From Vicinamibacterales bacterium (lineage in GTDB: Bacteria > Acidobacteriota > Vicinamibacteria > Vicinamibacterales > UBA8438): a stretch of 64,000 nucleotides of DNA. This document shows, piece by piece, positions 38,925 through 64,000 of the stretch. Numbering within the stretch: the first letter of the stretch is position 1; each line of letters begins with the position of its first letter. The stretch is taken from NCBI GenBank assembly GCA_965243615.1, contig CBDEVO010000003.1, positions 4,058,471-4,122,470 of the forward strand. The letters are read 5' to 3'. The notes under the pieces are model-generated. The model worked only from the letters and a program-made list of their open reading frames with translations, was not told the DNA's origin and did no database searches. Both the position numbers and the translations under genes were made by a program.

Positions 38925-38937
38925 TCGCTCGCTCGCC

Positions 38938-38956
38938 CGGTCTCTGCCCGAGACCG
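38938..38956 (+). terminator. Hairpin after tRNA-Glu
   Basis: CGGTCTC-tgccc-GAGACCG lies 14 nt after the tRNA 3' end. There is no clear U-tract. Confidence 0.3.
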
Positions 38957-39095
38957 TCATCCGCCCCTCCAGCGTCCAGCGCCGGTGCGTGGTAACCTCT
39001 TTGGAAGGTGCCGTGCGGCGGGGAGGCCGGTGGACATTCCCACGCGGCGAACTCGTTGGCGACAGGGCCGCCTGCCGGGTGCGCGGGGAAGCGTC

Positions 39096-44487: not shown

Positions 44488-45590
44488 GGCGCGCTCTCCG
44501 CGCGCCCGGACGGCGCCGGCGCGGCGGGCAGCGTGAGCCGCGCGCGCGCGCCGGCTCCGCGCGGGCCGGCGGACAGCGCGAGGGCCGCGCGCCCGCCGTA
44601 GGACGCCTGGAGCCGGCGGGCGATGTTGCCCAGGCCGTGGTCGTCGCGGACCAGGTCTTCCCCGTCGCCGGCGAGTCCGATTCCGTCGTCGATCACGTCG
44701 ATGCGCAGCACGCTGTCGTCGAGGGCGGCGGAGACGTCGATGCGGCCTCCGCGCGACCGCGGCGCGAGCCCGTGCCCGACCGCGTTCTCGACGAGGGGCT
44801 GGAGAATCAGACCGGGCACCCGCACCCGAAGCGAGTCGGGCTCGACGTCCCAGGCCACCCGCAGCCGGTCGCCGAAGCGGACCTGCTCGATGCGCAGGTA
44901 GCCCTTGGTGAAGGCGATCTCGTCGCGCAGGGCGACGGGCGCGGCGTCGGCCGCGGCGAACACGTAGCGGAAGAGGTCGGCGAAGGTCTCCAGCAGCTCC
45001 TCGGCCGTCCGCGCATCCTCCTCGACCATCGAGCCGATGGTGTTGAGGGTGTTGAAGAAGAAGTGCGGGTTGATGCGCGCCTGGAGCGCGGCCAGCTCGG
45101 CGCGGGCCGCCTCCTCGCGCAGCCGCGCCTCGACCAGCCGCACCTCCCGCATCTCGCGCAGGGCGTCCTGCAGCCGCAACCGCATCTCCTCGTAGCCGAG
45201 CACGACGCCGCCGACCACCAGGGCGAGGACGCTGTTGAGGACGACGACCCCGACCGCGAGGCGCGGCTCGCGGAAGACGAACAGTGGATAGGCCCCGAGC
45301 ACGGCCACGCTGCCCAGGCCCGCGCCCGACAGCAGGGCTACGACGAGCAGCGGAAACCGGAGCAGGCTCGAGCGTCCCCGCAGCCGCGGAAAGAGCCAGA
45401 CCGAACAGACCAGCGCGGTGAGGCCGACCACGTTGGCGAAGAGCACGGAGATCACCAGGATGGGGCGCTCGACGCCCTCCCCCTGGAACACGCTGACGCC
45501 GAGGCCGACGGCGAGGCCGGCGAGGCTGCAGGCCGAGATCCAGAACGCGGCGTGGCGACCGAGGCTTCGGGCCGGGCGCGAGCGGCTCAC
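44484..45590 (-). CDS. LytS-type sensor histidine kinase (His_kinase + HATPase_c) with a multi-TM sensor
   Basis: It has INPHFFFNTLNTIGSMV and LILQPLVENAVGHG, and GLGNIARRL. GTG 45588-45590 forms a GTGA overlap with the upstream gene, and ATGA joins it to the regulator at 44484-44487. Confidence 0.88.
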   Translation of the reverse strand: MSRSRPARSLGRHAAFWISACSLAGLAVGLGVSVFQGEGVERPILVISVLFANVVGLTALVCSVWLFPRLRGRSSLLRFPLLVVALLSGAGLGSVAVLGAYPLFVFREPRLAVGVVVLNSVLALVVGGVVLGYEEMRLRLQDALREMREVRLVEARLREEAARAELAALQARINPHFFFNTLNTIGSMVEEDARTAEELLETFADLFRYVFAAADAAPVALRDEIAFTKGYLRIEQVRFGDRLRVAWDVEPDSLRVRVPGLILQPLVENAVGHGLAPRSRGGRIDVSAALDDSVLRIDVIDDGIGLAGDGEDLVRDDHGLGNIARRLQASYGGRAALALSAGPRGAGARARLTLPAAPAPSGRAESAP

Positions 45591-46798
45591 CGCACCCTCG
45601 CGAGGACGAGGGTGACGTCGTCGTGGGCGTCGACGGGGCCGCTCCACCGCAGGAGGGCCTCGAGCACGGTGTCGATGATCGCCTCGAGGGGACGCGCGCG
45701 GTGCGCGTGCAGCAGATCGGCCAGCCTCTCCGCCCCGAACTCCTCGCCGTCGGGCGCCGGCGCCTCGGTGACGCCGTCGGTGAACAGCGCCAGCAGATCG
45801 CCGGGCACCAGTGTCCTGGCGCCGGTCTCGTAGGCCGCGCCCTCGAACAGTCCGATGGGCATGCCGCCGTCCTCGCAGCGCTCGGTGTCGCCTCCCCGGA
45901 CGAGGATCGCCGGCAGGTGCCCGGCGTTGGTGTAGGACAGGAGGCGCGTCTCGGGATCGAAGGTGGCGACGAACGCGGTGGCGTAGCGGGCGGCGGACGA
46001 CGAGCCGCACAACGCCTCGTTCAGGCCGGCTGCGAGCGATCCGGGGGTCCTCGCGGTCGGGAAGCGGCTGCGCATGGAGGCCTGCAGGTTGGCCATGAGG
46101 AGGGCGGCGGGGACTCCCTTGCCGGACACGTCGACGATGGCCACACCCAGCCGGCCGTCACCGTCCCGGAGGTAGTCGTAGAGGTCGCCGCCGACCGCGA
46201 TGGCGGGCCGGCAGACACCCGCCAGCTCCAGCCCCGCGACGTCGGGGACCTCGCGCGGCAGCAGCTCGCGCTGGACTTCCCGGGCCACCTTCAGCTCGCG
46301 CTCGAGCGCGTCCCGCTCCCGCAGGACCCGGTACGACGCCTCGATCTGGCGCCGCATCCGGTCGTAGGTTCCCAGGGCCACCGCGACCCCCGCCGCGAGC
46401 ACCGCGTTGAACGCGACGAGAAACAGGGCGGCCCGGGGCTGCGCGGCCACGTAGAACGGATCGGTGAAGATGACCAGGATCGAGCCGAAGATCGTGCCCG
46501 ACACGACGATCAGGGCCTCGAGCACGAGGCGCAGCCCCCCCGGCACGCGGGCCAGCAGCGGGAACACCACCCGGGCCGAGATGTACGCGCTGAAGCCGAC
46601 GACCTCGGCGAACAGCACGCTCAACCGCAGGACGGGGCCGAGATCGACGCCGGCCCCGAACGAGATGCCGGCCGCGAAAACCACGCCGACCCCGAGCCAC
46701 GCGGCGGTCCAGCCGGTGAGGAAGCGCCAGCCCGGAGCCGCCGCCTCGGCCGGTGACCGTGGACTCGGGGTCGGCGCCGCGGAAGGAGACGGAGTCAT
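45587..46798 (-). CDS. Membrane-anchored PP2C/SpoIIE-family phosphatase
   Basis: The C-terminal domain reads AREVQRELLP...AIAVGGDLYDY...AIVDVSGKGVPAALLMA...TNAGHLP...LFTDGVTEA...HDDVTLVLARV. The N-terminal TM block is homologous to that of the adjacent kinase. Confidence 0.88.
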   Translation of the reverse strand: MTPSPSAAPTPSPRSPAEAAAPGWRFLTGWTAAWLGVGVVFAAGISFGAGVDLGPVLRLSVLFAEVVGFSAYISARVVFPLLARVPGGLRLVLEALIVVSGTIFGSILVIFTDPFYVAAQPRAALFLVAFNAVLAAGVAVALGTYDRMRRQIEASYRVLRERDALERELKVAREVQRELLPREVPDVAGLELAGVCRPAIAVGGDLYDYLRDGDGRLGVAIVDVSGKGVPAALLMANLQASMRSRFPTARTPGSLAAGLNEALCGSSSAARYATAFVATFDPETRLLSYTNAGHLPAILVRGGDTERCEDGGMPIGLFEGAAYETGARTLVPGDLLALFTDGVTEAPAPDGEEFGAERLADLLHAHRARPLEAIIDTVLEALLRWSGPVDAHDDVTLVLARVR

Positions 46799-47435: not shown

Positions 47436-47777
47436 TCAGCCGAGCACGCCGGCGTAGCTGTCGGCGTCGAAGCCGACGAGCAGGGTCTTGCCGACCCGCA
47501 GCAGCGGCGCCCGCAGGTTGCCGGTGGCGCCGACCATGGCGTCCACCACCGCGTCGTCGGGCGCCCCGCGGGGCTTGAACTCCGCCACCTTCCGGCCCTT
47601 GGCGACGATGATGCGCGACGCCGCCTCGGCCAGCTCGCGGGCGTCGGTCCGGCCGAGCTTGCGGCTCGCCGGCACCCGTTCCTTCACGTCGATCCCGTTG
47701 GCCTCCAGGAACTTGGAGGCTCTGGAGCAGCTCGTTCAACCGGATCGGTGGTAGTACCAGTCGACCCTACTGCCCAT
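47436..47777 (-). CDS. ArsC/Spx/YffB-like thioredoxin-fold protein with an in-frame TGA (candidate selenocysteine, UxxC)
   Basis: The minus strand reads ATG(47777-47775) GGC AGT AGG GTC GAC TGG TAC TAC CAC CGA TCC GGT TGA(47738-47736) ACG AGC TGC. This translates as MGSRVDWYYHRSG-U-TSCSRASKFLEANGIDVKERV..., running into the 83-aa track ORF (...GNLRAPLLRVGKTLLVGFDADSYAGVLG). Confidence 0.6.
47701..47720 (-). promoter_or_regulatory. Candidate bacterial SECIS hairpin
   Basis: On the mRNA, GCCUCC-AAGUUCCU-GGAGGC starts 15 nt after the UGA, and the apical loop contains GU. An alternative CUCCAG/CUGGAG pairing (47729-47703) is also possible. Confidence 0.45.
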
Positions 47778-48777
47778 CGTTCGCCGCCGCCTTCTCGACC
47801 GCCCGGGCCCCGGTCAGCGTGCCGTCCATGCCGTAGTTGCCCTCGTGGCACGCGTACTCGAACAGCGGGAGGTCGCTCAGCCGCATCGGGAGCTCCACCG
47901 ACCACGGCTGCGTCCACGTCGTGGGGTCCGTCACCGTGAACGAGTAGAGCAGCACGTCGTCGCTCATGCGCCGGAACCGCTCGACGAGATGGAGGTTCTC
48001 GCTCGAGTTGCGGAAGCTGGTCTCGCGCAGGAAGTTCTTCGTCTCGACGACCAGGGTGTCGCCGTCCCAGTGACCGCGGGACACGCCGGTCCACATCGGC
48101 ACGGTGCCGTGGCCGCTGCCGTCGAGGGGGACGATGCGGGCGTTGTGCACCATCTCGTTGAGTATCACGACGTGGTCGGCGGTCTGGAAGATCTGCACGT
48201 TCATGTTGTAGGCGGCGGGCAGCATCGGCGGCCCCGAGTTGAACCCGGTGATGCACCGCTCGCCGAGAGGCCGGTCCTCCGGGCCCCACGACGGCCGCTG
48301 GTTGACGCGCAGGCGCTCGGCCGCCCGGGCCTCGGCCGCCTCGGTCAACGCCGGCACCCGGCCGTTCGGGGGATCGACGACGAGCGAGGTCCGGCGGGTC
48401 TCGACGACGGAGTCGCCGCGGTCCCACCAGAAGTCGTTGTAGGCGAGGGCGAGGTCGCGGCTTTCGCGGGTGCCGTTCACCTCTCCCCGGGCGGTCGTCT
48501 CGAGCTTGCGGGCCTCCCGGTCGCGGTCGGCGTTGCTCTCCCGCACGCGCTCGGCGGCGTAGGCGGAGACCTCCTCCTCGGAGAGGAACGCCTGGTCCGC
48601 GAACTCCTCGGGACGCTCGAGGGGGGTCACGGTCCGGAAGTCCCAGACGCCGCTGATGTCGGGGTGCCCGTCGGGGGTGCGCAGGATCTCGCTCCCGGAC
48701 TGGGCGGCGGCCGGGGCCGCGAGAGACAGCGCGAGCGCGGCGCTGCCCGCGAGCACGGCGATGGTTCGGATGTTCAT
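47767..48777 (-). CDS. Exported protein, unnamed family (paralog 1 of 4; C-terminal EYACHEGNYG motif)
   Basis: The signal peptide is MNIRTIAVLAGSAALALSLAAPAAAQ, and it carries the shared motifs listed in the findings. An alternative GTG start lies at 48789. Confidence 0.8.
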   Translation of the reverse strand: MNIRTIAVLAGSAALALSLAAPAAAQSGSEILRTPDGHPDISGVWDFRTVTPLERPEEFADQAFLSEEEVSAYAAERVRESNADRDREARKLETTARGEVNGTRESRDLALAYNDFWWDRGDSVVETRRTSLVVDPPNGRVPALTEAAEARAAERLRVNQRPSWGPEDRPLGERCITGFNSGPPMLPAAYNMNVQIFQTADHVVILNEMVHNARIVPLDGSGHGTVPMWTGVSRGHWDGDTLVVETKNFLRETSFRNSSENLHLVERFRRMSDDVLLYSFTVTDPTTWTQPWSVELPMRLSDLPLFEYACHEGNYGMDGTLTGARAVEKAAANDGQ

Positions 48778-48989
48778 GGTCTTCGTCACCTCTGATGAAA
48801 GACGGCGTCTACCCGCAACGCGGGGTACTCCTGGCTACCGTTCGAACGAGCTTTCCCGTTGCCGGATCGGACTTCGGCTCGACCGATTCGGTTCGCGTCG
48901 GCTGCTCCCGGTCTCCTCAAGCTCGGCGAACGCCGAGATGAAGGGCTTCGTCGAGGCGATCGTGAACGACCGCCTCGGTGCATTCCTCC

Positions 48990-50036
48990 CTACTGCCCCG
49001 CCTCGGCCGCGGCTTCCTGCACCCGCGCGCCGGCGAGGATGTTGTAGAGGCCGTAGTTGCCCTCGTGGCAGGCGTACTCGTACATCGGCTGCTCGTTCAA
49101 CACCATCGGCACCTCGTAGGTCCACGGCCTCGACCAGACGGTCGGGTCGTCGATCGTCGCCTCGTAGTTCAGGACTCCGGGCGACACCCGGGTGAAGCGC
49201 TCGGTGAGGCGGAGGTTCGCATCGGTCGAGCCCGAGCGGAAGCTCGTCTCGCGCAGGAAGTTGGCCGTCTCGACGACGAGGGTGTCCCCCTCCCAGTGCC
49301 CGCGGGAGTCCCCCTGCCACTGCGGCAGATCGATCTCCGCCCGCCCGTCGAGGGGAACGATGCGCACGTTGTGGTTCATCTCGTTGAGCAGCGCCACGTG
49401 GTCGGGGGTCTGGAAGATCTGCACGTTGTTGTTGTAGCCCCCCGGGGTCATCGGCGGACCCGCGTTGAAGCCGGTGATGCAGCGAAGCTGCAGGCCGTTG
49501 GCCCCGAGGTCCTCGACCCAGCCGCCCGGCGTCGGCGAGTGGTTGTCGACGCCCTCCCGCGCCGCGCGCAACGCCGCCTGCCGCTCGGCCGCCTCTGGGA
49601 CCAGCGCCGGGATCTTGCCGTCCGGCGGGTCGACGACCAGCGACGTGCGCCGCGTGCCGACGGTGGTGGTGCCGCGGTCGAGCCACAGGTTGTTGTAGAA
49701 GCCGGGGGCCCCCTCCTCGCCGCGGTCGACGCTCGCGGTGACCTCCGTTCTCACGGCGGGGCGATTCAGGAGCTCCTCGTTGCGGGCCAGGGTCTCCTGC
49801 TCCAGGTTCGCGGCCTCCTCCTCGCTGAGGAAGGCCCGGTCGCCCAGATCGTCGGGACGCTCCATCGGCGTGATCGAGCGGAAGTCCCAGACGCCCTGGA
49901 TGTCGGGGGCGCCCCACGCGGTCCGCGGCACCGCCTCGTCGGCGCCCTGACCGGCGGCGACGGCCGGGGCCAGCATTCCCAAGGCGACGGCGACGGCGAT
50001 CGCCCGACCCGTTGCGGCGCGGTTTCGATGGTTCAT
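48990..50036 (-). CDS. Exported protein, unnamed family (paralog 2 of 4)
   Basis: The start is ATG 50034-50036 (MNHRNRA), preceded by GAGGAGGG. It has a signal peptide and full-length similarity to the other three copies. Confidence 0.85.
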   Translation of the reverse strand: MNHRNRAATGRAIAVAVALGMLAPAVAAGQGADEAVPRTAWGAPDIQGVWDFRSITPMERPDDLGDRAFLSEEEAANLEQETLARNEELLNRPAVRTEVTASVDRGEEGAPGFYNNLWLDRGTTTVGTRRTSLVVDPPDGKIPALVPEAAERQAALRAAREGVDNHSPTPGGWVEDLGANGLQLRCITGFNAGPPMTPGGYNNNVQIFQTPDHVALLNEMNHNVRIVPLDGRAEIDLPQWQGDSRGHWEGDTLVVETANFLRETSFRSGSTDANLRLTERFTRVSPGVLNYEATIDDPTVWSRPWTYEVPMVLNEQPMYEYACHEGNYGLYNILAGARVQEAAAEAGQ

Positions 50037-50112
50037 GTCACCCTCCTCGGTCCACTCGGATGGATACGCATGATCGCCCACTTCGGCGGCCGGACGCAAG
50101 GCGCCCGGGGCG

Positions 50113-51456
50113 TCAGTAGTCGGCCGCATCGAGCGAGAAGCTGACGATCTCCTCGTCGTTCCGGGTGAGGACGTGCCGGTTGGCGTAGGCGGGATGGACC
50201 CAGCTCACGTTGCGCAGCTCCCGGCGGTTGCCGGGGTTGGAAGTCGGCGCGATCAGTTGCGTGCGGCTGATCTCCTCGTAGCCGGCCGGACTCAGCCGCG
50301 AGATGATCAGCTCGCCCCGGTCGTTGTTGATGAACACGCGGTCCCGGTTCTTGACCATGAACCCCGAGACCCAGCGGCGCCGCTCGACCGTGGCCTCCTG
50401 CGTCTCCCAGATGCGCTCGCCGGTCTCGGCGTCCAGGCAGCGGAGCTGGCCGTAGCTGCAGATGCCGTAGATGTACCCGCCGTCGATGATGGGCGTGGCG
50501 AGCACCGCGTGCAGCCCCTCGGTGCGGATCTCGCTGTTGCTGCTCCCCTTCCACTCGATGGTCGCCGCGGGGCGGTCCTGGTTGAGGGCGAGCATCATCG
50601 GGCCGTCGTAGAACGTGGTGAAGAAGAGCCGGGCCCCCACCTGCACGGGCACCGCGACGGTCATGGCGCCGCCCACGACGTACGGCTGCCGCCAATAGAC
50701 GTCGCCCGTCACCGGGTCGAGCGAGGCGACCTCCTCCGGGTCCCAGACGATGAGCTGCCGCGCCCCGCCCGCCTCGATGATGATGGGCTGCGCGACCCCG
50801 AGGTCGGCCTCGCTCGGCAGGGCCCGCCAGATCTCCTCCCCCGTCATCTTGTCGAAGGCGACGACGCGGGCGTCGGGCGGGCCGCCGACGAGGCAGATGA
50901 GCCGCTCGCCGTCGACCAGCGGCGCGCTCGCGAAGCCCCAGTCGAAGCCCCACCGCATGCGGTCGACGCCGTAGTCCTCGGCGTAGCGTTTCCGCCACAG
51001 GAGCTCGCCGGTGTCGACGGCCAGGGCCGACATCACGCCGGTGCGCCCCAGGACGTAGACGCGGTCGCCGTCGACGGTCGGCGTCGCCCCCGGCCCGATC
51101 TCCCACTGGATGCCCGCGTAGTCGGCCTCCCACGACCGGGTCCAGAGAATCTCGCCGGTCGCCTCGTCGAGGGCGAGGGCCCGCTCGACCCCGCGCATGC
51201 CCTGTTGCGGCTCCCAGTCGGTGACGAACACGCGGCCGTCGGCCACCGCGGGGCCGGAGTAGCCGGCCTTGACGGGGGTGCGCCAGCGCGCCCTGAGCCC
51301 CTCGTCGGGGAACGCGCGGAGGATGCCCGTCTCGTTCCACACCCCGCGGCGCCCCTCTCCGCGGAACTCGGGCCAGTCTTCGGCCGCCACCTCCGCCGCG
51401 CCGCCGGCCAGCCAGGCCGCGCAGGCGACGATCGCAGTCAGTCTCGCGCAGGTCAT
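50113..51456 (-). CDS. PQQ-like / BamB-like beta-propeller repeat protein, exported
   Basis: After the signal peptide it reads WPEFRGEGRRGVWNETG. It then has repeated D..TGE.LW and V.G..VY.. blades (ALDEATGEILW, AVDTGELLW, FDKMTGEEIW, LDPVTGDVYW, LDAETGERIW). Confidence 0.8.
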   Translation of the reverse strand: MTCARLTAIVACAAWLAGGAAEVAAEDWPEFRGEGRRGVWNETGILRAFPDEGLRARWRTPVKAGYSGPAVADGRVFVTDWEPQQGMRGVERALALDEATGEILWTRSWEADYAGIQWEIGPGATPTVDGDRVYVLGRTGVMSALAVDTGELLWRKRYAEDYGVDRMRWGFDWGFASAPLVDGERLICLVGGPPDARVVAFDKMTGEEIWRALPSEADLGVAQPIIIEAGGARQLIVWDPEEVASLDPVTGDVYWRQPYVVGGAMTVAVPVQVGARLFFTTFYDGPMMLALNQDRPAATIEWKGSSNSEIRTEGLHAVLATPIIDGGYIYGICSYGQLRCLDAETGERIWETQEATVERRRWVSGFMVKNRDRVFINNDRGELIISRLSPAGYEEISRTQLIAPTSNPGNRRELRNVSWVHPAYANRHVLTRNDEEIVSFSLDAADY

Positions 51457-51609
51457 TCGTGCATGTCTCCGGTCAGGGCCCCAGGTGATTGGATGGCCAT
51501 CTCGAGCTCGGTGAGGCGAAACCCATCGGGTTCCCTCGATCGCTCCACGCTCTTCCTTCGATTCGGTATGGTCGACACCGGAAGGATGCCATGGCTGACT
51601 GCCGGAGGG

Positions 51610-52551
51610 TCAGCGCGGGGCGAGCTCGGTGTAGAGCGCCTCGACGGCGGCCGGCAGACCCGTCAGGTCGTACTCGGCATACCGATCCGGCAACTCCAAC
51701 GCCCCCGCCGCCTCCGCGGCGCTCCGGCCGGCCGAGTGCTCCCGCTCCACCGCGGCGACCAGCTCGCGCATGAACCCGGCGTACTCGGCGAGGTCGTCCC
51801 ACGTCAGGAACCCGCTCCAGGCGCGTGCCCTGCCCCGCTCCCGGCGCCCCCGGCCCGCATAGGTCGAGGGGAACGGCCCGTGCCCGGTGATCACCCGCGC
51901 CACCCCGTCGATGGCCGCGACGGCGCGGTCGAGGGTGTCGGGAAAGGCGAGCCCGCTGCCGCCCCGCTCGAGGTCGATGACGGGGACCGCCCTGTCGGGG
52001 AACAGGCCGCCCAGATAGGCGACCCCCTTCTCGGGAAAGACCACCACGACGTCGCCGTCGGTATGGGCGGGACCGAAGTGGTAGAGGTCGATGCGGTCGA
52101 GGTCGTCGAGCAGCGTGAAGCGATCGGTGAAGGTGGCCGTCGGCAGGCCCGGCCCGTCCTCGGCGTAGCGGCCGTCGCGGACCATCGCGGCCCGGGCGTT
52201 GGCGTGGGCGACGATGGTGACCGCGTCGGGGAACTCCGCGTTGCTGCCCGCGTGCTCCTCGTGGGCGTGGGTGTTGATGATCGTGGTAACCGGGAGGTCG
52301 GTCACCTGCTCGACCGCCTCGCGCATGGCGTCGCCCCAGCCCGGCGGCTTGGTGTCGATCAGGACCACGCCGCCGTTGATCTCGTCGATGAGGGCGAGGC
52401 CGTTGCCGCCCCCACCCCCGAGGTGGTAGAGCACGTCCCGGACGTTGAGGGTGTCGATGCTGACGATGCGCTCCGTCCCGGCCTGCGCGAGGGCCGGCAC
52501 GGCGGACCCCGACAGGAGGACGGCGGCCACGGCCGCCCCGATCCATCTCAT
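51610..52551 (-). CDS. MBL-fold metallo-hydrolase, exported
   Basis: After the signal peptide it has the HxHxxH-type motif INTHAHEEHAGSN, then GPAHTDGDVVV and ITGHG. The start ATG 52549-52551 is preceded by GGAGAGAG. Confidence 0.85.
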   Translation of the reverse strand: MRWIGAAVAAVLLSGSAVPALAQAGTERIVSIDTLNVRDVLYHLGGGGGNGLALIDEINGGVVLIDTKPPGWGDAMREAVEQVTDLPVTTIINTHAHEEHAGSNAEFPDAVTIVAHANARAAMVRDGRYAEDGPGLPTATFTDRFTLLDDLDRIDLYHFGPAHTDGDVVVVFPEKGVAYLGGLFPDRAVPVIDLERGGSGLAFPDTLDRAVAAIDGVARVITGHGPFPSTYAGRGRRERGRARAWSGFLTWDDLAEYAGFMRELVAAVEREHSAGRSAAEAAGALELPDRYAEYDLTGLPAAVEALYTELAPR

Positions 52552-52652
52552 GCGACTCTCTCCGCTTCCTCGCCCGGGTCCTCGCCTTGTCCGCATCCAC
52601 TCGAGCCGACCCTTCCGCGTCCGACCCGGTTCCACGGCGCCGACTCCTGCAG

Positions 52653-53561
52653 CTACAGCACCCCGGCCTGCTCCATGACCGCCTCGCACTTGCCCCGTAT
52701 CTCGGTCGCCACCTCGAACGGGTCCCCCTGCTGCAACTCGGCCCGGAACAGCTCGACCGACAGCGCCCCCGTGAACTCCTTCTCGGCCAGCTTCTGCAGA
52801 ATGCGCACCACCGGGGCGATGCCGTCGCCGGGAATGATCCGCGAGTCGTTGTCGATGAGCTCGCGCGGTCCGTCGAGGAGGTCCTGGAAGTGGGTGTGGG
52901 CCAGCTCGCCCGGCTCGAGCAGGTCGAGGTCCTCGAACTTGCTCATGCCCGACCAGAAGTGGAAGAAATCGATCATCGGCCGGACGGCGGGATGGTCCGC
53001 GGCCCGGATCATCGCCAGCGACGACGTCAGCGTGGACAGATGGGTCGAGGTGCGCGTGAACTCGATCATCGTGGTGAGACCGAACCCGGCGGTGATCTCC
53101 GCGACCTCGCGGATGGCGGCCGGCGTAGCGTCGAAGTCGGCGGCGGTGACCGGCCGGTTCGTGACCGACGGCGAGTAGATGAGCTCGAGGCCGAGGCTCG
53201 CGAACTGCTCGCAACGCTCCCGCCAGGTGTCGAGCGAGGCCGCGCGGGCCGGCCCCGGAATCCACAGGTCGGGCAGGGCCACCGCGGCCGAAACGGGGGT
53301 CATCCCGTTGTCGGTCATCACGCGTCCCGCCGCCGCCAGCGTGTCGTTGGCGAGGAAGTCGACCAGCATCTGGTCGTTGAGCTCGACGTAGCGGATGCCC
53401 GCCCTCGCCCAGCCCTCGAGCGAGCCGCGGTAGCCGGCCCCCCGCGACGTGTTCTGGTGCATGGCCAGCAGCATCTTGCCGGGCTCGGCGGACTGCGCGC
53501 CGGCCAGCCGGGCGAAAGGCAAGGCCAGGGGCGCCATCAGAAGGTTGCGTCTCGTCAGCAT
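52653..53561 (-). CDS. Xylose-isomerase-like TIM-barrel protein (sugar phosphate isomerase/epimerase family) with a Tat-like leader
   Basis: The leader is MLTRRNLLMAPLALPFARLAGAQS. The body reads GIRYVEL...GLELIYSP...TTMIEFTR...HFQD...GALSVELF. The start ATG 53559-53561 is preceded by GAGAGGAA. Confidence 0.75.
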   Translation of the reverse strand: MLTRRNLLMAPLALPFARLAGAQSAEPGKMLLAMHQNTSRGAGYRGSLEGWARAGIRYVELNDQMLVDFLANDTLAAAGRVMTDNGMTPVSAAVALPDLWIPGPARAASLDTWRERCEQFASLGLELIYSPSVTNRPVTAADFDATPAAIREVAEITAGFGLTTMIEFTRTSTHLSTLTSSLAMIRAADHPAVRPMIDFFHFWSGMSKFEDLDLLEPGELAHTHFQDLLDGPRELIDNDSRIIPGDGIAPVVRILQKLAEKEFTGALSVELFRAELQQGDPFEVATEIRGKCEAVMEQAGVL

Positions 53562-53663
53562 GGATTCCTCTCGTGTCGTCGTCGGCCTTCTGCGGCCGCG
53601 CGTTCTTCCGCCGCGCCGGCGCCGCAACGGCGGTCGGCCCGCGGCACCGTCCATATCCGGCGG

Positions 53664-54677
53664 CTACCGGCCGCTTTCCGCCGCCCCCGCTTCCTGCACC
53701 ACCGCGCCGGCGAGGATGTTGTAGAGCCCGTAGTTGCCCTCGTGGCAGGCGTACTCGAACAGCGGCTGGTCGTTCTTCACCATGGGGATCTGGTAGCTCC
53801 AGGGCCGGTCCCAGGCGCCCGGATCGTTAACCGTCACCTGGTACATCAGCGTGCCCTCGGACACCCGGGTGAACCGCTCGACGAGGTGCAGGTCGGCAGT
53901 GGTCACGCCGCCCCGGAAGCTCGTCTCGCGCAGGAAGTTGGTCGTCTCCACCACCAGGGTGTCGCCCTCCCAGCGACCCCGCGAGTCGCCCATCCACTGC
54001 CGCACGCCGTCGTCGAGGTTCGGCCGCCCGTCGAGCGGGATCACGCGCGAGCTGTGCACCATCTCGTTCAGCAGGACCACGTGGTCCTCGGTCTGGAACA
54101 CCTGGAGGTTCTGGTTGTAGCCGCCCGGCGTCATCGGCGGGCCGGTGTTGAAGCCGAGGATGCAGCGGACCGCGAACATGCCCGGCCCGAGGTCCTCGAC
54201 CCAGCCGCCGGGGGTCGGCGAGTGGCGGTTGACGCCGGCCCGCGCCTGCTGCTCCGCCTCCCGTCGCGCCGTCGCGGCCGCCGACAGGGGCGGCACCCGG
54301 CCGTCGGGCGGGTCCGTCACCAGCGACGTCTGGCGGGTCTCGCTGACCCGGTTGCCGGGGTCGAACCAGAACTGGTTGTAGTTGCCGACCACGTCGGCCG
54401 GCTCCTGGTCGTCGCGCACCGCGAACGCCGCGAGGCGATCGGCCTCGAACTGCGCCGCCTCCTCGGGCGTGAACACCGCCTGATCGGCCAGCGCCTCGGG
54501 CCGCTCGAACGGGGTCAGGGTGCGGAAGTCCCACACGCCGTTGAGGTCCGGGGCGCCCCAGGCGGTCCGGGGGGCCGCGTCGTCGGCCGCCGGCTGGGCG
54601 ACCGCGCCCGGCGCGAGAACGCCGGCCGCGAGAACGAGCACCGCACACGCCGCCGCCGCATATCGCTGGATGGCCAC
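53664..54677 (-). CDS. Exported protein, unnamed family (paralog 3 of 4)
   Basis: GTG 54675-54677 is preceded by a strong AGGGAGGAAG Shine-Dalgarno, although the ORF extends to 54716. This copy is closest to paralog 2: both contain HSPTPGGWVEDLG. Confidence 0.85.
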   Translation of the reverse strand: MAIQRYAAAACAVLVLAAGVLAPGAVAQPAADDAAPRTAWGAPDLNGVWDFRTLTPFERPEALADQAVFTPEEAAQFEADRLAAFAVRDDQEPADVVGNYNQFWFDPGNRVSETRQTSLVTDPPDGRVPPLSAAATARREAEQQARAGVNRHSPTPGGWVEDLGPGMFAVRCILGFNTGPPMTPGGYNQNLQVFQTEDHVVLLNEMVHSSRVIPLDGRPNLDDGVRQWMGDSRGRWEGDTLVVETTNFLRETSFRGGVTTADLHLVERFTRVSEGTLMYQVTVNDPGAWDRPWSYQIPMVKNDQPLFEYACHEGNYGLYNILAGAVVQEAGAAESGR

Positions 54678-54828
54678 GGGGCTTCCTCCCTGGTTCCGTT
54701 TACGGTTCCCCTTCAACTGTCGACCGGCGCATGATCGCTCCGATGCCCGCGGCCGTCAACCCGGCCGGGTCAGGGAGAGGGCCCGGCAGGCGTGAGGACA
54801 TCGAACCGGCAACGTGTAAGCTTGGTGC

Positions 54829-55044
54829 GTGAAGGCAAGGACGATTGCCATCGACCGGGAAGCGCATGAGCTGCGGGCTGCAAGCAAGCGGCGCGGGGAG
54901 CCCTTCAGCGACGTAATCGAGCGCGCCGTCCAGGCGGAACGGCACACGGCGTCGTATCTGCTCGATCACATCGACGACATCCTACTGGCCGAGGACACCC
55001 TCACCGCCATCGAGGCGGTGATGAGCGAGCGGAGACGCTCCTGA
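54829..55044 (+). CDS. Small VapB-like putative antitoxin / RHH-like protein, with no adjacent toxin
   Basis: KARTIAIDREAHELRAASKRRGEPFSDVIERAV resembles the archaeal-type VapB antitoxin pattern (TI.I.DE.Y..L......GESFSDVI.RL). It is 71 aa with a GTG start. Confidence 0.55.
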   Translation: MKARTIAIDREAHELRAASKRRGEPFSDVIERAVQAERHTASYLLDHIDDILLAEDTLTAIEAVMSERRRS

Positions 55045-55108
55045 CCGCATCGTTGCCGGTTCCGTGGAGATTCGGGTCGGACAGTCGTCACGACAACGGA
55101 GGGTTGGA

Positions 55109-56143
55109 ATGCAGGCACGTCCCATCGCCGCGCTCGGCATGTTGCTCATCGTCTCGCTCATCGCCGGCCCGGCGCGCGGTCAGGCCCCGCGGCTGCCCGA
55201 CGGGCGGCCGGACCTGCAGGGGGTGTGGGACTTCCGCACCATGACGCCGCTGCAGCGGCCCCAGATGATGGCCGATCGGGAGTTCCTGACGGAGGAAGAG
55301 GCCGCGACCCAGGAGAACCGGATCGCGGCGTTCCGGGCCAGCCAGCTCGAGCCGAGCGAGGTGCGGACCGAGCCGCTGCCGGCCGGTGGCGGAGGCCGCG
55401 CGGTGGGCGGGTACAACGACTTCTGGCTCGACTACGGCACGACCGTCGTCGAGGACCGCCGCACCTCGCTCATCGTCGACCCGCCGGACGGTCGGCTGCC
55501 CGCCCTGACCCCCGAGGGCGAGGCGCTCCGCCAGGTAGGCTCGCTGATCGAGGACCTGCCGATTCCGCTGCCGGTGCGGGTCCGCAGCGCCGGCACCGGC
55601 GCCGACCGGCCCGAGGACCGCGGCCTCGCCGAGCGCTGCCTCGTCGGGTTCAACAGCGGCCCGCCGATGATGCCGAGCGGCTACAACAACAACATGCAGC
55701 TCTTCCAGACCGCGGACACCGTCGCGATCCTGAACGAGATGGTGCACGACCTGCGGGTCATTCCCCTCGACGGCCGCCCGCGGCTCCCGGAGGGCATCCG
55801 CCAGTGGGCGGGCAGCTCGCGGGGGCACTGGGAGGGCGACACCCTGGTGGTCGAGACCACCAACATGACCGACAAGACGGGCAGCTTCGACCCGTCGGCC
55901 ACCACCGCCATCGGCACCGGCCTGACCGTCACCCTGACGGAACGGTTCACCCGCCTCGACGGCGACACCCTGCTCTACGAGTACACGGTGGACGACCCCG
56001 TCATCTTCTCGCGGCCGTTCACCGTCGCGGTGCCGATGCGGCGGTCCGACGAGCCGATGTTCGAGTACGCCTGCCACGAGGGCAACTACGGCCTGCTCAA
56101 CATCCTGAGCGGCGCCCGCGCCGAGGACGCCGCCGCCCGCTGA
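55109..56143 (+). CDS. Exported protein, unnamed family (paralog 4 of 4)
   Basis: ATG 55109 is preceded by ACGGAGGG. The signal peptide is MQARPIAALGMLLIVSLIAGPARGQ, and the shared motifs are present. Confidence 0.85.
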   Translation: MQARPIAALGMLLIVSLIAGPARGQAPRLPDGRPDLQGVWDFRTMTPLQRPQMMADREFLTEEEAATQENRIAAFRASQLEPSEVRTEPLPAGGGGRAVGGYNDFWLDYGTTVVEDRRTSLIVDPPDGRLPALTPEGEALRQVGSLIEDLPIPLPVRVRSAGTGADRPEDRGLAERCLVGFNSGPPMMPSGYNNNMQLFQTADTVAILNEMVHDLRVIPLDGRPRLPEGIRQWAGSSRGHWEGDTLVVETTNMTDKTGSFDPSATTAIGTGLTVTLTERFTRLDGDTLLYEYTVDDPVIFSRPFTVAVPMRRSDEPMFEYACHEGNYGLLNILSGARAEDAAAR

Positions 56144-56289: not shown

Positions 56290-56823
<534 letters not shown>

Positions 56824-57364
56824 TGACCCGGCCTGGGGTCGGCCGGCGGCCCGGTGCCCGGGCCAGTCCCGGCGCGCCTCGGAGTGCTGCCCCGCAGCCG
56901 CGGGCCGGGTCGGAACGGGCCCATTCTCACACAGCCGTCACGGGGCGGGGCGGCCGATGGCACGAACTCCCCGCCCCGCGCGGCCGGGGGCGCCGTTCCA
57001 CGAGGCGCCTGGCAGGGGCGCCGGCGCCGGCCGCGGGTCATCCCATCGCGTCCGTGCCCGCGAAGGGCCGGCAGGCCGACACGCGCCGCCCCCCGGCGCT
57101 CCCGTCCCGCCGGGCTGGTGCACGACAGGTCTGCGGGGTGACGCCCGGCCGGGTCGGGCTGGTGGTTGGGGTATCGTGGTCGGCGGCATCTCACCTGTCG
57201 CCGCCCCCTCGCGGCGCATGCTCGTGAACCGCCCGCAGGTAGTTGATAAGGTGAGGCGTTCCCCGGAGGCCGCGGGGCGGGGAGGCCGACGCCCCGATGC
57301 GTCACGGATGCGATAATCGACCGCCTCGGCCTGGTCACCAGGAAGCGAATCCGGAGGTGTGACG

Positions 57365-58813
57365 ATGAAGGTGTTGAGAAGCCTCGTTCCCATCGGCGCG
57401 CTCGGACTGACGTTCCTCGCTCTCCCGGCCGCCGCGCAGCCGGCGCCCGAGACGATCATCCGCGGCGGCGACGTCTTCACCGCGGGCGGCCTGCGGCAGG
57501 CCGACATCCGGGTCGTCGGGTCGACCATCGCCGAGATCGGCACCGGTCTCGCGGCCCGTGGCGCGGGCACCCGCGAGATCGACGCGCGCGGCCGGCTGGT
57601 GCTGCCGGGGGGCGTCGACCCCCACGTGCACCTCGGCCGCGACCGGCTGGACGACTACACGTCGGGCTCGGCGGCTGCCCTCGCGGGGGGTCTCACGACG
57701 ATCTCGAACTTCGGCGGGGTGGGGGCGGGCAGCACGCCGGCCGCGGCGGTGGCCCAGGCCGCCGCGGACGTGGCCGAGCAGGCGATCGCCGACTTCATCT
57801 TCCACCCCATCGTCTCGGACCCCGCCACCGCCACCGCCGAAACCCTCGCGGCCCTCGCCGACACCGGGCAGACCACCATCAAGGTGTTCATGGTGCGGCC
57901 CACGTTCGACGCCAGGGCCCCCGGCTTCGTCTCGACCATGCACGCGGCCCGCGAGAACGGCGTGCTCATGATGATGCACTGCGAGGATGCGGCGCTCGTG
58001 CAGATCACGTCGGAGCGGCTGCTGGCGGAAGGGCGCGGCGGCCTCGAGAACTTCCCCGACGCCCGGCCGGTGACGGCGGAGGTCGCGGCGACGCAGCGCG
58101 CGGTGTCGATGGCCGAGCAGACGGGCGCCGCCCTCTACATCGTCCACCTGTCTTCGGAGGGCGCCCTGCGGGTCGCCGAGCGGGCGCAGGCGCGCGGCCT
58201 GCCGGTGTACGTCGAGACGCGCCCCATCTACCTGCACCTGACGCGTGAGCGGTTCGACGGCCCCACCCCGGGCCTCTACATCGGTCAGCCCCCGCTGCGG
58301 GAGCAGAGCGACGTCGACGCCCTGTGGGACGGCATCGCCCGCGGGACCGTGCACGTCGTGGCCACCGACCACGTCGCCTACACGCGCGAGCAGAAGCTCG
58401 ACCCCGCGCAGAACGTCGTGCAGCACCGCGCGGGGATGAGCAACCTCCAGGTGATGCTGCCGATGCTCTACTCCGAGGGGGTCCGGGACGGCCGGATCAG
58501 CCTGGAGCGCTTCGTCGAGGTCACCTCCAGCAACCCCGCCAGGCTGTTCGGCCTGTATCCCCGCAAGGGGGCAATCGCGGTGGGGTCCGACGCGGACCTC
58601 GTGCTGTGGGACCCGGAGGAGACGCGGACCATCCGCAACGAGGACATGCTGTCGAACAGCGGCTACTCGGTGCACGCGGGCCGGGTGGTCACGGGCTGGC
58701 CGACCCTGACCATGCGGCGCGGGGAGATCGTGTACCGCAACGGCGAGGTCCTGGGCGCGGCGGGCAGCGGCGAGCTCGTCGACCGCGATCGGTGGCGCGG
58801 ACCACCGCTGTGA
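57365..58813 (+). CDS. Cyclic amidohydrolase (dihydropyrimidinase/hydantoinase/dihydroorotase-like) with a signal peptide
   Basis: The metal ligands are GGVDPHVHL, KVFM, MMHCED, IVHLSS and ATDHVAY. The N-terminus is MKVLRSLVPIGALGLTFLALPAAAQP. A GGAGG Shine-Dalgarno lies 7 nt upstream of ATG 57365. Confidence 0.85.
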   Translation: MKVLRSLVPIGALGLTFLALPAAAQPAPETIIRGGDVFTAGGLRQADIRVVGSTIAEIGTGLAARGAGTREIDARGRLVLPGGVDPHVHLGRDRLDDYTSGSAAALAGGLTTISNFGGVGAGSTPAAAVAQAAADVAEQAIADFIFHPIVSDPATATAETLAALADTGQTTIKVFMVRPTFDARAPGFVSTMHAARENGVLMMMHCEDAALVQITSERLLAEGRGGLENFPDARPVTAEVAATQRAVSMAEQTGAALYIVHLSSEGALRVAERAQARGLPVYVETRPIYLHLTRERFDGPTPGLYIGQPPLREQSDVDALWDGIARGTVHVVATDHVAYTREQKLDPAQNVVQHRAGMSNLQVMLPMLYSEGVRDGRISLERFVEVTSSNPARLFGLYPRKGAIAVGSDADLVLWDPEETRTIRNEDMLSNSGYSVHAGRVVTGWPTLTMRRGEIVYRNGEVLGAAGSGELVDRDRWRGPPL

Positions 58814-62978: not shown

Positions 62979-64000
62979 TCAGGGCAGAGCGAGCGCGATC
63001 AACTCGGCGCCGCCCTCGGCGCTCGACGTGCCGACGGCCACCGCGATGTACTGCTTCCCCTCGTGCAGGTAGCTGACCGGGTTGCCGTAGGGCACGGCCG
63101 GCAGCTCCACCGACCCCAGGTAGGCTCCGGTGTCCTTGTCGTAGGCGGTCATGGCCCGCGCCGCCTCGACCATGTCGTCGACGTAGCGACCGCCGGAGTT
63201 GACGATGAGCAGAGTCTTCGTGACGAGGGGACCGCCCCCGTGCATGCCGTTGTGGCCGCCGAGCGGAGGCAGCCCGAGGTGGCGCAGGGCCGGGTGGTTC
63301 CGCGGGCCGTCGCCGTGGGGAACCATCCAGGCGTGGTCGCCGGTGTTCAGGTCGATGGCGGTGACCCGCTTGTAGGGCGGCTTCACGAGGGGCAGCCCCT
63401 GCGGCCCCGGCACCGGCTGCGCCCACGGATCGGTGAAGTAGCCGACGGTGGCGGGAGGCGGGTACTCGACCAGCTCGACCGCCCGCAGCCGGGTCTGCGA
63501 CGGCACGAACAGGCGCCCCGTCTCGGGGTCGACGGCCGCGCCCGGCCAGTTGATGCCCCCGCCGGGGCCCGGCGACTGGATGATGGGCCGGCCCTCGCCC
63601 CGCACCGGCGGCGGCGTGAAGATGGGCCCGAGCTGCGCCCGCCCGGCGAGGCGGAGGGCCTCCGTGCGGAGCTCGGGGGTGAAGTCGATGAGGTCGTCGA
63701 CGGTGATGCCCTGCAGGTCGAACGCGGCCGGCTTCGTCGGGAACGGCTGGGTCGGCGCGTACCACTCCCCCGGCACCGCGCCGGCGGGGACCGGCCGCTC
63801 CTCTATCGGCCACACCGGCTCGCCGGTCACGCGGTCGAAGACGTACACGAAGGCCTGCTTGCTGGGCTGGGCGATCGCCTTCACGTCCCTGCCGCCGACA
63901 CGGATGTCGACGAGGTTGCCGGCGGTCGGGAAGTCGTAGTCCCAGAGCCCGTGGTGCACCGCCTGGAAGTGCCAGACCCGCTGACCGGTCTCGACGTCGA
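62979..64000 (-). CDS. PQQ-dependent dehydrogenase (glucose/quinate-type), 3' part; the gene continues beyond the window
   Basis: The frame is open to the window edge (VDVETGQRVWHFQAVHHGLWDYD...). The propeller blades read AIDLNTGDHAW and AYDKDTGAYLG. Confidence 0.85.
   Translation of the reverse strand, partial: DVETGQRVWHFQAVHHGLWDYDFPTAGNLVDIRVGGRDVKAIAQPSKQAFVYVFDRVTGEPVWPIEERPVPAGAVPGEWYAPTQPFPTKPAAFDLQGITVDDLIDFTPELRTEALRLAGRAQLGPIFTPPPVRGEGRPIIQSPGPGGGINWPGAAVDPETGRLFVPSQTRLRAVELVEYPPPATVGYFTDPWAQPVPGPQGLPLVKPPYKRVTAIDLNTGDHAWMVPHGDGPRNHPALRHLGLPPLGGHNGMHGGGPLVTKTLLIVNSGGRYVDDMVEAARAMTAYDKDTGAYLGSVELPAVPYGNPVSYLHEGKQYIAVAVGTSSAEGGAELIALALP

What the first reader, a model, noticed from the sequence alone, without database searches (positions are those of the whole stretch)
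47767..56143. Four paralogs of an unnamed exported protein family (C-terminal EYACHEGNYG) interleaved with a beta-propeller, an MBL hydrolase and a Tat-exported TIM-barrel enzyme
Four ORFs encode ~340-aa proteins, each with a signal peptide, that align over their full length: 47767-48777 (-), 48990-50036 (-), 53664-54677 (-) and 55109-56143 (+).

These motifs are present in all four, read directly from the translations:
- GVWDFR
- R(R/Q)TSL(V/I)(V/T)DPP(D/N)G(R/K)xP
- C(I/L)xGFNxGPPM
- LNEMxH
- (V/I)PLDG
- G(H/R)W(E/D)GDTLVVET
- ERF(T/R)R
- (F/Y)EYACHEGNYG at the C-terminus

Copies 2 and 3 also share the 13-mer HSPTPGGWVEDLG. I cannot place this family in any named domain.

The copies alternate with three other exported proteins. 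These are a PQQ-like beta-propeller protein (50113-51456), an MBL-fold hydrolase (51610-52551) and a xylose-isomerase-like TIM barrel with a twin-arginine leader (52653-53561).

The minus-strand genes of the cluster, including the candidate selenoprotein at the distal end, point the same way. Paralog 4 and the small VapB-like gene upstream of it are read divergently on the plus strand.

A four-fold local expansion of an invariant-Cys/His-bearing secreted family next to periplasmic enzymes suggests an extracytoplasmic catabolic or redox system of unknown substrate.
Basis: partly seen in the sequence, partly recalled or inferred. Interest (0 to 1): 0.7.

Follow-up and report, generated by a model that had tools for sequence, protein, structure and literature searches.

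The report
Unnamed exported family linked to quinoproteins
Four old, diverged copies of a very large exported bacterial protein family that no database names sit among periplasmic enzymes, and in two phyla this family recurs next to PQQ-dependent dehydrogenases, which makes it a well-defined target of unknown function.

Summary
Four ORFs encode full-length paralogs (47-60% identical) with signal peptides and every listed motif.

The family is real, very large and unnamed:
- It has 23,439 clusters at 50% identity (2,365 at E<=1e-30).
- It has no Pfam, NCBIfam or PDB sequence match, even below threshold across 107 diverse members.
- Every source calls it "hypothetical".

A confident AlphaFold model (pLDDT 86) has no full-length relative in the PDB. 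Only about 115 residues weakly resemble FABP/lipocalin-type barrels.

Mature proteins almost always contain exactly two Cys, both invariant. This most likely means one structural disulfide, not a metal or haem site.

The copies are not a recent local expansion: each has 78-89% orthologs in other genomes.

Neighbourhoods in 86 loci show real linkage to:
- PQQ-dependent dehydrogenases (24 loci, 12 of them within 600 bp; also in marine Gammaproteobacteria);
- a SoxH-related MBL hydrolase (12 loci, both phyla);
- the MBL-propeller pair (5 loci).

The TIM barrel is not co-conserved.

Best reading (inferred): a periplasmic small-molecule-handling accessory protein of quinoprotein-centred catabolic modules. 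The biochemical function remains unknown.

The parts
47767..48777 (-). Family copy 1 (336 aa from the ATG; an alternative GTG start at 48789 gives 340 aa)
   Evidence: ORF; aligned; all motifs present and GAGGTG before the ATG; ortholog at 87% identity in L005
48990..50036 (-). Family copy 2 (348 aa). This is the sequence that was modelled. Invariant Cys186 and Cys323; near-invariant His324.
   Evidence: The AlphaFold model has pLDDT 85.8. The longer ORF reaching 50129 would overlap the propeller gene, and GGAGG precedes the ATG at 50036.
50113..51456 (-). Exported PQQ_2-type beta-propeller protein (447 aa). It is not a full PQQ dehydrogenase.
   Evidence: Pfam PF13360, E 2.4e-33. All NCBIfam matches are far below cutoff. 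It is co-conserved with the MBL and a family gene in L005, L017, L052 and L054.
51610..52551 (-). Exported metallo-beta-lactamase-fold hydrolase (313 aa), SoxH-related subtype
   Evidence: Pfam PF00753, E 9.7e-14. The best NCBIfam match is TIGR04559 at 54.8 bits against a cutoff of 280. The same subtype lies near family genes in 12 of 81 loci and in Gammaproteobacteria.
52653..53561 (-). Xylose-isomerase-like TIM barrel (302 aa) with a twin-arginine-like leader. It lies inside the cluster but is not co-conserved with the family.
   Evidence: Pfam PF01261, E 7e-21. MLTRRNLL leader. Found only in L005 and, 10 kb from the family gene, in L066.
53664..54677 (-). Family copy 3 (337 aa). Closest to copy 2 and shares the HSPTPGGWVEDLG insertion.
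   Evidence: A sigma-70-like promoter match lies at 54759-54731 on the minus strand, just upstream (a consensus match only).
54829..55044 (+). Small VapB-like (putative antitoxin) gene upstream of copy 4, with no VapC partner
   Evidence: Pfam PF02697 at 26.0 bits, just below the 27.9 cutoff. Conserved at 59% identity in the syntenic locus L005.
55109..56143 (+). Family copy 4 (344 aa), transcribed divergently
   Evidence: Orthologs at 78-89% identity in L005, L033 and L040.
62979..63959 (-). C-terminal part of a full PQQ-dependent dehydrogenase (cut by the window end), about 7 kb from copy 4
   Evidence: Pfam PF01011, E 4.8e-80, profile positions 287-595; NCBIfam result

Best explanation
The four genes are old, diverged paralogs of a very large, so far unnamed, Sec-exported protein family (mature size about 310 aa).

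The protein is predicted to be one compact domain:
- An N-terminal G-V-W strand and two conserved segments wrap an up-and-down beta-meander/barrel (residues about 200-315). This barrel weakly resembles FABP/lipocalin (calycin) barrels.
- The EYACHEGN loop and a C-terminal helix follow.
- The two invariant cysteines most likely form a single structural disulfide that ties the EYACHEGN loop to the R-C segment (inferred).

I propose that it works in the periplasm as a small-molecule-handling accessory protein. It would bind a substrate, product or cofactor for exported catabolic enzymes. The main partners would be PQQ-dependent dehydrogenases and a SoxH-related MBL hydrolase with its PQQ-like propeller partner. 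The many paralogs would then serve different enzyme partners or ligands.

Shown: paralogy, export signal, family size and orphan status, predicted fold class, the two-Cys pattern, and the cross-phylum gene linkage. Inferred: the disulfide, the binding role, and the functional coupling to the neighbouring genes.
For: - Paralogy and motifs.
- Family size: 23,439 / 11,909 / 2,365 clusters at E<=1e-3 / 1e-10 / 1e-30.
- Orphan status: no Pfam, NCBIfam or PDB sequence match, even at E<=10 over 107 members.
- Names: only 'hypothetical' or 'uncharacterized' in both phyla.
- Model: pLDDT 85.8, pTM 0.84, with eight consecutive hairpin-connected strands and a C-terminal helix.
- Fold search: the only PDB matches are FABP/CRABP/SAHS barrels, probability about 1.0, TM (target) 0.45-0.55 over about 115 columns.
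- Cysteines: exactly two in 124 of 136 members, both 100% conserved.
- Export: signal peptide in 91 of 102 members, and few lipoboxes.
- Tandem arrays: 38 of 80 loci hold two or more copies, up to seven; within-locus identity has a median of 41%.
- PQQ-DH linkage: 24 of 86 loci, 19 within 3 kb, 12 within 600 bp, with density decaying over distance. It directly flanks the family gene in Gammaproteobacteria L085, L087 and L089, and one lies in the window itself.
- MBL linkage: same subtype in both phyla, 34% identity, E 2e-30, 17-bp gap in L081.
- MBL-propeller-family trio: conserved in four further loci.
- Other close neighbours are exported or catabolic enzymes: GSDH, SMP-30 lactonase, esterases, amidase.
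Against: - No ligand, cofactor or activity has been shown.
- About 25 polar residues (R, E, N, Y, T, H) are at least 90% conserved across very diverse members. That looks more like a catalytic or cofactor site than a variable ligand pocket.
- 62 of 86 loci have no PQQ-DH within the held flanks, so the linkage is facultative.
- The adjacent PQQ-DHs belong to different classes.
- Co-divergence with the adjacent PQQ-DH is weak: r 0.28.
- The calycin resemblance covers only a third of the protein, at borderline TM. Profile comparison with Lipocalin_5 was negative.
Confidence: 0.4

Rival explanations
1. The family is a new enzyme. It would be a barrel-based periplasmic catalyst that processes products or substrates of the neighbouring enzymes, for example lactones, esters, amides or aldehydes. 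Catalysis would come from the conserved polar set (E320, C323, H324, E325, N327, R185, R225, E219, E279, Y291).
For: - The unusually strong conservation of about 25 polar residues across members only 40% identical overall is typical of active sites.
- Many diverged paralogs per genome resemble catabolic enzyme families.
- The neighbours are hydrolases and dehydrogenases of the same compartment.
- From general knowledge, calycin-type barrels do include enzymes such as lipocalin-type prostaglandin D synthase, which has a catalytic Cys.
Against: - The two cysteines behave as a pair: exactly two in 124 of 136 members. In an exported protein that favours a disulfide over a free nucleophile.
- There is no similarity to any known catalytic family.
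- The neighbours are too varied to suggest one reaction.
Confidence: 0.25
2. The family is a dedicated partner of quinoprotein dehydrogenases. It would be either a periplasmic PQQ carrier/loading chaperone or an electron acceptor that carries a non-covalent cofactor (haem b, quinone or PQQ).
For: - Linkage to PQQ-DHs of several different classes in two phyla points to something common to all quinoproteins rather than to one substrate.
- Six conserved Arg plus Trp, Asn and Tyr could bind an anionic planar cofactor.
- Rare fusions to CxxCH-containing domains exist (P0123, P0154).
- PqqU, a PQQ importer, was found in the class Vicinamibacteria, and the acidobacterial PqqU-encoders in that survey lack PQQ biosynthesis genes (PMC12124388).
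Against: - Most family genes (62 of 86 loci) have no PQQ-DH nearby.
- A single cofactor chaperone would not need 4-7 tandem paralogs.
- There is no known cofactor-binding motif and only one conserved His.
- The mirror-tree signal is weak.
- The fusions are rare, and at least one apparent fusion (P0230) is probably two merged genes.
Confidence: 0.15
3. One reading: the eight genes form one dedicated extracytoplasmic catabolic or redox system for a single unknown substrate. The four paralogs would be a local expansion that carries a Cys/His redox or metal centre.
For: - The genes are tightly packed, with gaps of 64-200 bp and seven on one strand.
- The whole arrangement is conserved in L005.
- All the products carry export signals.
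Against: - L005 is a close relative (83-90% identity), so its synteny says little.
- The TIM barrel is not co-conserved elsewhere.
- The paralogs are ancient, not a local expansion.
- There is no metal or haem motif.
Confidence: 0.1
4. The neighbourhood signal is incidental. On this reading the family is a general periplasmic or envelope protein (structural, stress-related or a chaperone) that happens to lie in gene-dense regions rich in exported enzymes.
For: - Most immediate neighbours are singletons (107 of about 260 adjacent genes) or other family copies.
- Genomes of this order carry very many PQQ-DH and DUF1592/DUF1552 genes, and the latter pair shows a flat, chance-like distance profile.
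Against: - The distance decay for PQQ-DH, MBL, amidase and DUF6152 is hard to get by chance.
- The same PQQ-DH and MBL adjacency recurs in a second phylum.
Confidence: 0.1

Closest known systems
Calycin superfamily barrels (FABP/CRABP, lipocalins, tardigrade SAHS proteins)
   Same: They are the only structural matches in the PDB: Foldseek probability about 1.0, best E 3.8e-4 to 5xn9_A. Shared features are an up-and-down antiparallel barrel, a G-x-W motif on the first strand, a helix after the barrel, and a likely disulfide that fixes the C-terminal segment.
   Different: - Only about 115 of 348 residues align, at TM 0.45-0.55 and RMSD about 5 A.
- The protein is 2-3 times larger, with about 150 conserved extra residues.
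- There is no sequence or profile similarity to calycin families.
- No ligand is known.
[quoted passage not shown]
   Same: The genomic logic is the same: exported proteins of unknown role that recur beside PQQ dehydrogenases, together with an MBL hydrolase and a beta-propeller. The window's MBL has these models as its best NCBIfam match.
   Different: - The family itself is unrelated in sequence and predicted fold to any of these proteins.
- The window's MBL (54.8 against 280 bits) and its propeller fall far below those families' cutoffs.
- The SoxYZ-like carrier and rhodanese-domain components listed for the ped cluster did not appear among the window genes scanned with Pfam/NCBIfam or among the recurrent neighbour clusters.
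Massively expanded periplasmic binding families such as Bug/TctC receptors in Betaproteobacteria (from my own knowledge; an analogy only)
   Same: Signal-peptide proteins of about 320-340 aa. Many old paralogs per genome. They are scattered next to diverse catabolic genes.
   Different: The fold differs: Bug proteins are two-lobed alpha/beta binding proteins. No transporter partner recurs next to this family. The core of this family is far more conserved.

Membership tests
Any curated family in Pfam-A or NCBIfam | Significant match to a curated profile HMM | tested here: not met
   No hits for the four copies. No hits at E<=0.01, and no recurrent family at E<=10, over 107 diverse members.
Any protein with a solved structure | Sequence or profile match to a PDB chain, or a full-length structural match | tested here: not met
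   The profile search found nothing at E<=10. Foldseek matches cover only about a third of the model, at TMq about 0.21.
Calycin superfamily (lipocalin/FABP) | 8-10-stranded up-and-down antiparallel beta-barrel enclosing a cavity | tested here: inconclusive
   The model has eight consecutive hairpin-linked strands plus two short N-terminal strands. FABP/SAHS matches have probability about 1.0 but TM (target) 0.45-0.55 and RMSD about 5 A.
Calycin superfamily (lipocalin/FABP) | Sequence or profile relationship to a calycin-clan family | tested here: not met
   hhalign of the 107-sequence profile against Lipocalin_5 sequences gave probability 0.4% (the template profile was thin). There are no sub-threshold Pfam calycin hits.
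Calycin superfamily (lipocalin/FABP) | N-terminal G-x-W signature on strand A, packing against a conserved basic residue | tested here: inconclusive
   G48 is 99% and W50 86% conserved on a predicted first strand. Its packing partner could not be checked without coordinates.
c-type cytochromes | CxxCH haem-attachment motif | tested here: not met
   There are only two Cys, 137 residues apart. The local sequence is E-Y-A-C-H.
Cupredoxin / type-1 copper or Met-rich periplasmic copper proteins | Conserved His-Cys-His-Met (or Met/His-rich) ligand set | tested here: not met
   Only one His (H324) is at least 85% conserved, and no Met reaches 85% conservation, across 107 members.
Quinoprotein relay system / PQQ-catabolism accessory set (TIGR04558, TIGR04559; the accession of the beta-propeller model, TIGR03866, is from memory) | The MBL and the propeller reach the curated cutoffs of those models | tested here: not met
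   The window MBL scores 54.8 bits against a cutoff of 280 for TIGR04559. The propeller has no match to the PQQ-associated propeller model; its best match is BamB, far below cutoff.
Quinoprotein relay system / PQQ-catabolism accessory set | Genomic association with PQQ-dependent dehydrogenases | tested here: met
   24 of 86 loci, 12 of them within 600 bp. Flanking PQQ-DHs in Gammaproteobacteria. A PQQ-DH at 62979-63959 in the window.
Periplasmic solute-binding proteins (SBP; the PedG/MxaJ type) | Two-lobed alpha/beta fold and a match to SBP profiles | tested here: not met
   There are no SBP Pfam hits. The predicted structure is a beta-barrel with a few helices.

The most novel reading that the evidence does not exclude
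The family is a previously unrecognised, dedicated periplasmic partner of PQQ-dependent dehydrogenases in Acidobacteriota and marine Gammaproteobacteria. It would be either the cofactor-loading carrier that hands scavenged PQQ to exported apo-enzymes, or a new kind of electron acceptor built on a calycin-like barrel. Its paralogs would be matched to different quinoproteins.
Probability: 0.15. Interest if true: 0.8.

Novelty: new variant of a known kind. Interest (0 to 1): 0.55.

Why it matters
- This is one of the larger protein families with no name, no domain model and no solved relative. It has tens of thousands of sequence clusters and is abundant in soil and sponge Acidobacteriota (Vicinamibacterales, Bryobacterales) and in marine Pseudohongiellaceae and SAR86.
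- It has a clear signature: two invariant Cys and the EYACHEGN loop.
- A confident structure model is now available.
- It has a reproducible cross-phylum gene linkage to periplasmic quinoprotein dehydrogenases and to a SoxH-like hydrolase, whose own accessory genes are still unexplained (PMC12997753).
- Naming the family and finding its ligand or activity would annotate thousands of genes. It could also clarify how soluble PQQ enzymes are supplied with cofactor, substrate or an electron outlet in bacteria reported to lack PQQ biosynthesis genes (PMC12124388).

Tried and rejected
- **Haem c or copper site at 'ACHEGN':** rejected. There is no CxxCH, only one conserved His and no Met reaching 85% conservation.
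- **Homology to the Lipocalin_5 domain suggested by the P0230 'fusion':** the tail is a separate 196-aa protein elsewhere, and hhalign gave probability 0.4%.
- **Domain fusions as functional clues:** they are rare and heterogeneous (CxxCH plus squalene-cyclase-like repeats, cytochrome c'-like, OMP barrel). They are not decisive.
- **DUF1592/DUF1552 association:** they are frequent neighbours (12-13 loci) but show a flat distance profile, so this is most likely chance in genomes rich in these genes.
- **TIM-barrel co-conservation:** not found beyond the near-identical locus L005.
- **Mirror-tree co-divergence of family genes with adjacent PQQ-DHs:** weak (r 0.28; 5 of 2000 permutations reach it), probably driven by a few orthologous pairs.
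- **Shared upstream DNA motifs among the four paralogs:** none. The repeats found are in the coding sequence.
- **Literature:** no paper contains the motif as a sequence, and none mentions DUF6152. A general search was uninformative.
- **Exact look-up of copy 4 in public assemblies:** not on record.
- **First structure model from a shallow alignment:** poor (pLDDT 60). It was superseded by the 107-sequence model.

Full report
**Observation.** The region holds four ORFs: 47767-48777 (alternative start 48789) (-), 48990-50036 (-), 53664-54677 (-) and 55109-56143 (+).
- They align over their whole length. Pairwise identity is 47-60%, and copies 2 and 3 are closest.
The 13-mer HSPTPGGWVEDLG occurs only in copies 2 and 3.
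- DNA repeats of 100-300 nt at 71-81% identity show the same paralogy.
- Each protein begins with a signal-peptide-like leader.
- A VapB-like gene (54829-55044, just under the Pfam cutoff) precedes copy 4.
- G+C is about 72% throughout. The closest genomes are Vicinamibacterales (Acidobacteriota) MAGs.

**The family is real, very large and unnamed.**
- An exhaustive HMMER search with the four-paralog profile found 23,439 clusters (50% identity) at E<=1e-3, 11,909 at E<=1e-10 and 2,365 at E<=1e-30.
Every name given by a source was 'hypothetical' or 'uncharacterized', and no hit had a precomputed Pfam domain. This held for the acidobacterial branch and for a marine gammaproteobacterial branch (Pseudohongiellaceae, SAR86, Tara samples).
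- Pfam and NCBIfam give no hit for the four copies.
- A scan of 107 diverse members gave no Pfam hit at E<=0.01 and no recurrent family even at E<=10.
- Profile searches of all PDB sequences found nothing significant.
- The literature library holds neither the motif as a sequence nor DUF6152.

**Sequence anatomy (copy-2 numbering).**
- Invariant across the 107 members, which are about 40-50% identical to copy 2 for all but the closest few: R60, G140, P143, R185, C186, G242, G246, E279, E320, C323.
- At least 95% conserved: S132, Q209, E219, R225, W248, Y291, D297, H324, E325, N327 and R338.
- Only one histidine and two cysteines are conserved family-wide, and no methionine reaches 85% conservation.
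- 124 of 136 family ORFs collected from other genomes have exactly two Cys in the mature part.
- 91 of 102 full-length members have a signal-peptide-like N-terminus, and 5 of 107 have a lipobox-like motif.
- In an exported protein this pattern is most simply read as one structural disulfide. That is an inference: I could not obtain model coordinates to measure the distance.

**Structure.**
- A shallow alignment gave a poor model (pLDDT 60).
- The 107-sequence alignment gave a confident one (pLDDT 85.8, pTM 0.84).
- The model has a short N-terminal strand (GVWDF), a helix, a second short strand in the RRTSLVVDPPDG segment, two helices, eight consecutive hairpin-linked strands (204-314), the EYACHEGN loop and a C-terminal helix.
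- Foldseek against the PDB returned only FABP/CRABP/SAHS barrels. The best E-value was 3.8e-4, over about 115 aligned columns, with TM 0.45-0.55 on the target and 0.21 on the query.
- So a third of the protein weakly resembles a calycin barrel, and there is no full-length structural relative.
- A profile comparison with Lipocalin_5 was negative. That test was suggested by one apparent fusion, which turned out to be two merged genes.

**Age of the copies.**
- Each window copy has a much closer relative in other genomes (78-89% identity) than among its window paralogs (47-60%).
- Paralogs within a locus are a median 41% identical.
- 38 of 80 loci from species-representative genomes carry two or more copies within 10 kb, up to seven. 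Several genomes contribute several separate loci.
- The window therefore holds an old array of diverged subfamilies, not a recent four-fold expansion.

**Neighbourhood.** I clustered ORFs from 80 loci without prior labels and named the recurrent clusters.
- The commonest partner is a full-length PQQ-dependent dehydrogenase.
- With broader queries, 24 of 86 independent loci have one in the held flank, 19 within 3 kb and 12 within 600 bp.
- The PQQ-DH share of genes falls from 5.5% within 1.5 kb to 1.3% beyond 7.5 kb.
- The window itself carries the C-terminal part of a PQQ-DH at 62979-63959.
- In marine Gammaproteobacteria the family gene is directly flanked by PQQ-DHs in three of five sampled contexts (L085, L087, L089).
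- In a fourth (L081) an MBL precedes it with a 17-bp gap. That MBL is the same subtype as the window's: 34% identity, E 2e-30, and the same best NCBIfam model, SoxH_rel_PQQ_2, below cutoff.
- This MBL subtype lies within about 2.5 kb of a family gene in 12 of 81 independent loci.
- The MBL-propeller pair seen in the window recurs with a family gene in L005, L017, L052 and L054, down to about 50% propeller identity.
- Amidase (6 of 6 within 1.5 kb) and DUF6152 (a small exported protein that usually follows a family gene directly; 13 loci) are also tightly linked.
- GSDH, SMP-30 lactonase, esterases and TonB receptors also occur.
- DUF1592 and DUF1552 are frequent neighbours but show a flat distance profile, as expected by chance.
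- The TIM barrel is not co-conserved.
- The adjacent PQQ-DHs belong to different classes, and co-divergence with the family gene is weak (r 0.28).

**Interpretation.**
- What is shown: an exported, disulfide-type two-Cys, single-domain protein with a partly calycin-like barrel. It belongs to a very large orphan family that is repeatedly placed beside periplasmic quinoprotein dehydrogenases and a SoxH-related hydrolase in two phyla.
- The published ped cluster of Pseudomonas contains a comparable set of unexplained accessory genes: a PQQ-associated beta-propeller and a SoxH-like metallohydrolase (PMC12997753). The window's MBL and propeller do not reach those families' cutoffs, and the family itself has no counterpart there.
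- My best explanation (confidence 0.4) is a periplasmic small-molecule-handling accessory protein for such enzyme modules.
- The strong conservation of many polar residues keeps a new enzyme (0.25) and a cofactor or electron-transfer partner of quinoproteins (0.15) in play.
- The second of these is made more interesting by a published survey. It found the PQQ importer PqqU in the class Vicinamibacteria, and the acidobacterial PqqU-encoders in that survey lacked PQQ biosynthesis genes (PMC12124388).

**Verdict.**
- The family is a well-delimited piece of protein 'dark matter' with a concrete, testable genomic association.
- No new mechanism is demonstrated. I rate novelty as a new variant of a known kind (an exported barrel-type accessory protein) and interest at 0.55.

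Noticed in passing
window 47436-47765 (-), in-frame TGA at 47736-47738: Candidate ArsC-family selenoprotein. Read through the TGA, the ORF gives ...HRSG-U-TSC..., a U-x-x-C redox motif. The part after the TGA matches NCBIfam ArsC_rel_Se_1 (63 bits for the partial ORF against a cutoff of 85). A 7-bp GC-rich hairpin starts 18 nt after the UGA, but the fold is not better than shuffled sequence. No tRNA-Sec is present in the window.
   Followed up: partly
window 54829-55044 (+): An orphan VapB-like (putative antitoxin) gene with no VapC/PIN partner. It sits 64 bp upstream of family copy 4 and is conserved in the syntenic locus L005 (59% identity). It may be a small regulator of copy 4 rather than an antitoxin.
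   Followed up: no
window 62979-63959 (-), runs off the right edge: The C-terminal half of a full PQQ-dependent dehydrogenase (Pfam PF01011, E 4.8e-80), about 7 kb from copy 4. This matches the linkage seen in other genomes.
   Followed up: partly
window 57359-58813 (+) and 59712-61097 (-): Two amidohydrolase-family enzymes just beyond copy 4; both N-termini look signal-peptide-like by eye. An uncharacterised 236-aa ORF lies between them, and a cyclophilin lies at 56290-56823.
   Followed up: no
L025, L026, L032, L049, L071, L073, L077, L080 (for example L077 9431-9898): In Bryobacterales and some Vicinamibacterales, a small exported DUF6152 protein directly follows a family gene. Its mature N-terminus would begin His-His. 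DUF6644/CopD-like membrane proteins are often nearby. L049 shows the module three times. No literature mentions DUF6152.
   Followed up: partly
L081 10639-11085; L087 7495-7887 and 9012-9452; L089 7508-7900: In marine Gammaproteobacteria the family gene is accompanied by a small exported DUF7282 protein (1-bp gap in L087) and a 130-aa Polyketide_cyc2 (SRPBCC) protein. Both lie between the flanking PQQ dehydrogenases.
   Followed up: no
proteins P0123 (714 aa) and P0154 (403 aa): Rare family members carry N-terminal extensions with CxxCH haem motifs: a squalene-cyclase-like repeat domain in P0123 and a cytochrome c'-like segment in P0154. P0149 has a C-terminal OMP beta-barrel domain. Whether these are true fusions was not verified.
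   Followed up: partly
window 38766-40946 (+) and tRNA-Glu at 38849-38924 (+): The mechanical start of a DUF1592/DUF1588/DUF1595-type ORF overlaps a tRNA-Glu gene, so the real start must lie further downstream.
   Followed up: no
window 43723-46798 (-): A LytTR-type response regulator ORF, a His_kinase/HATPase sensor and a SpoIIE/PP2C phosphatase lie just downstream of the minus-strand cluster. No link to the family was tested. The LytTR label is from inspection only; the kinase and phosphatase were confirmed.
   Followed up: no
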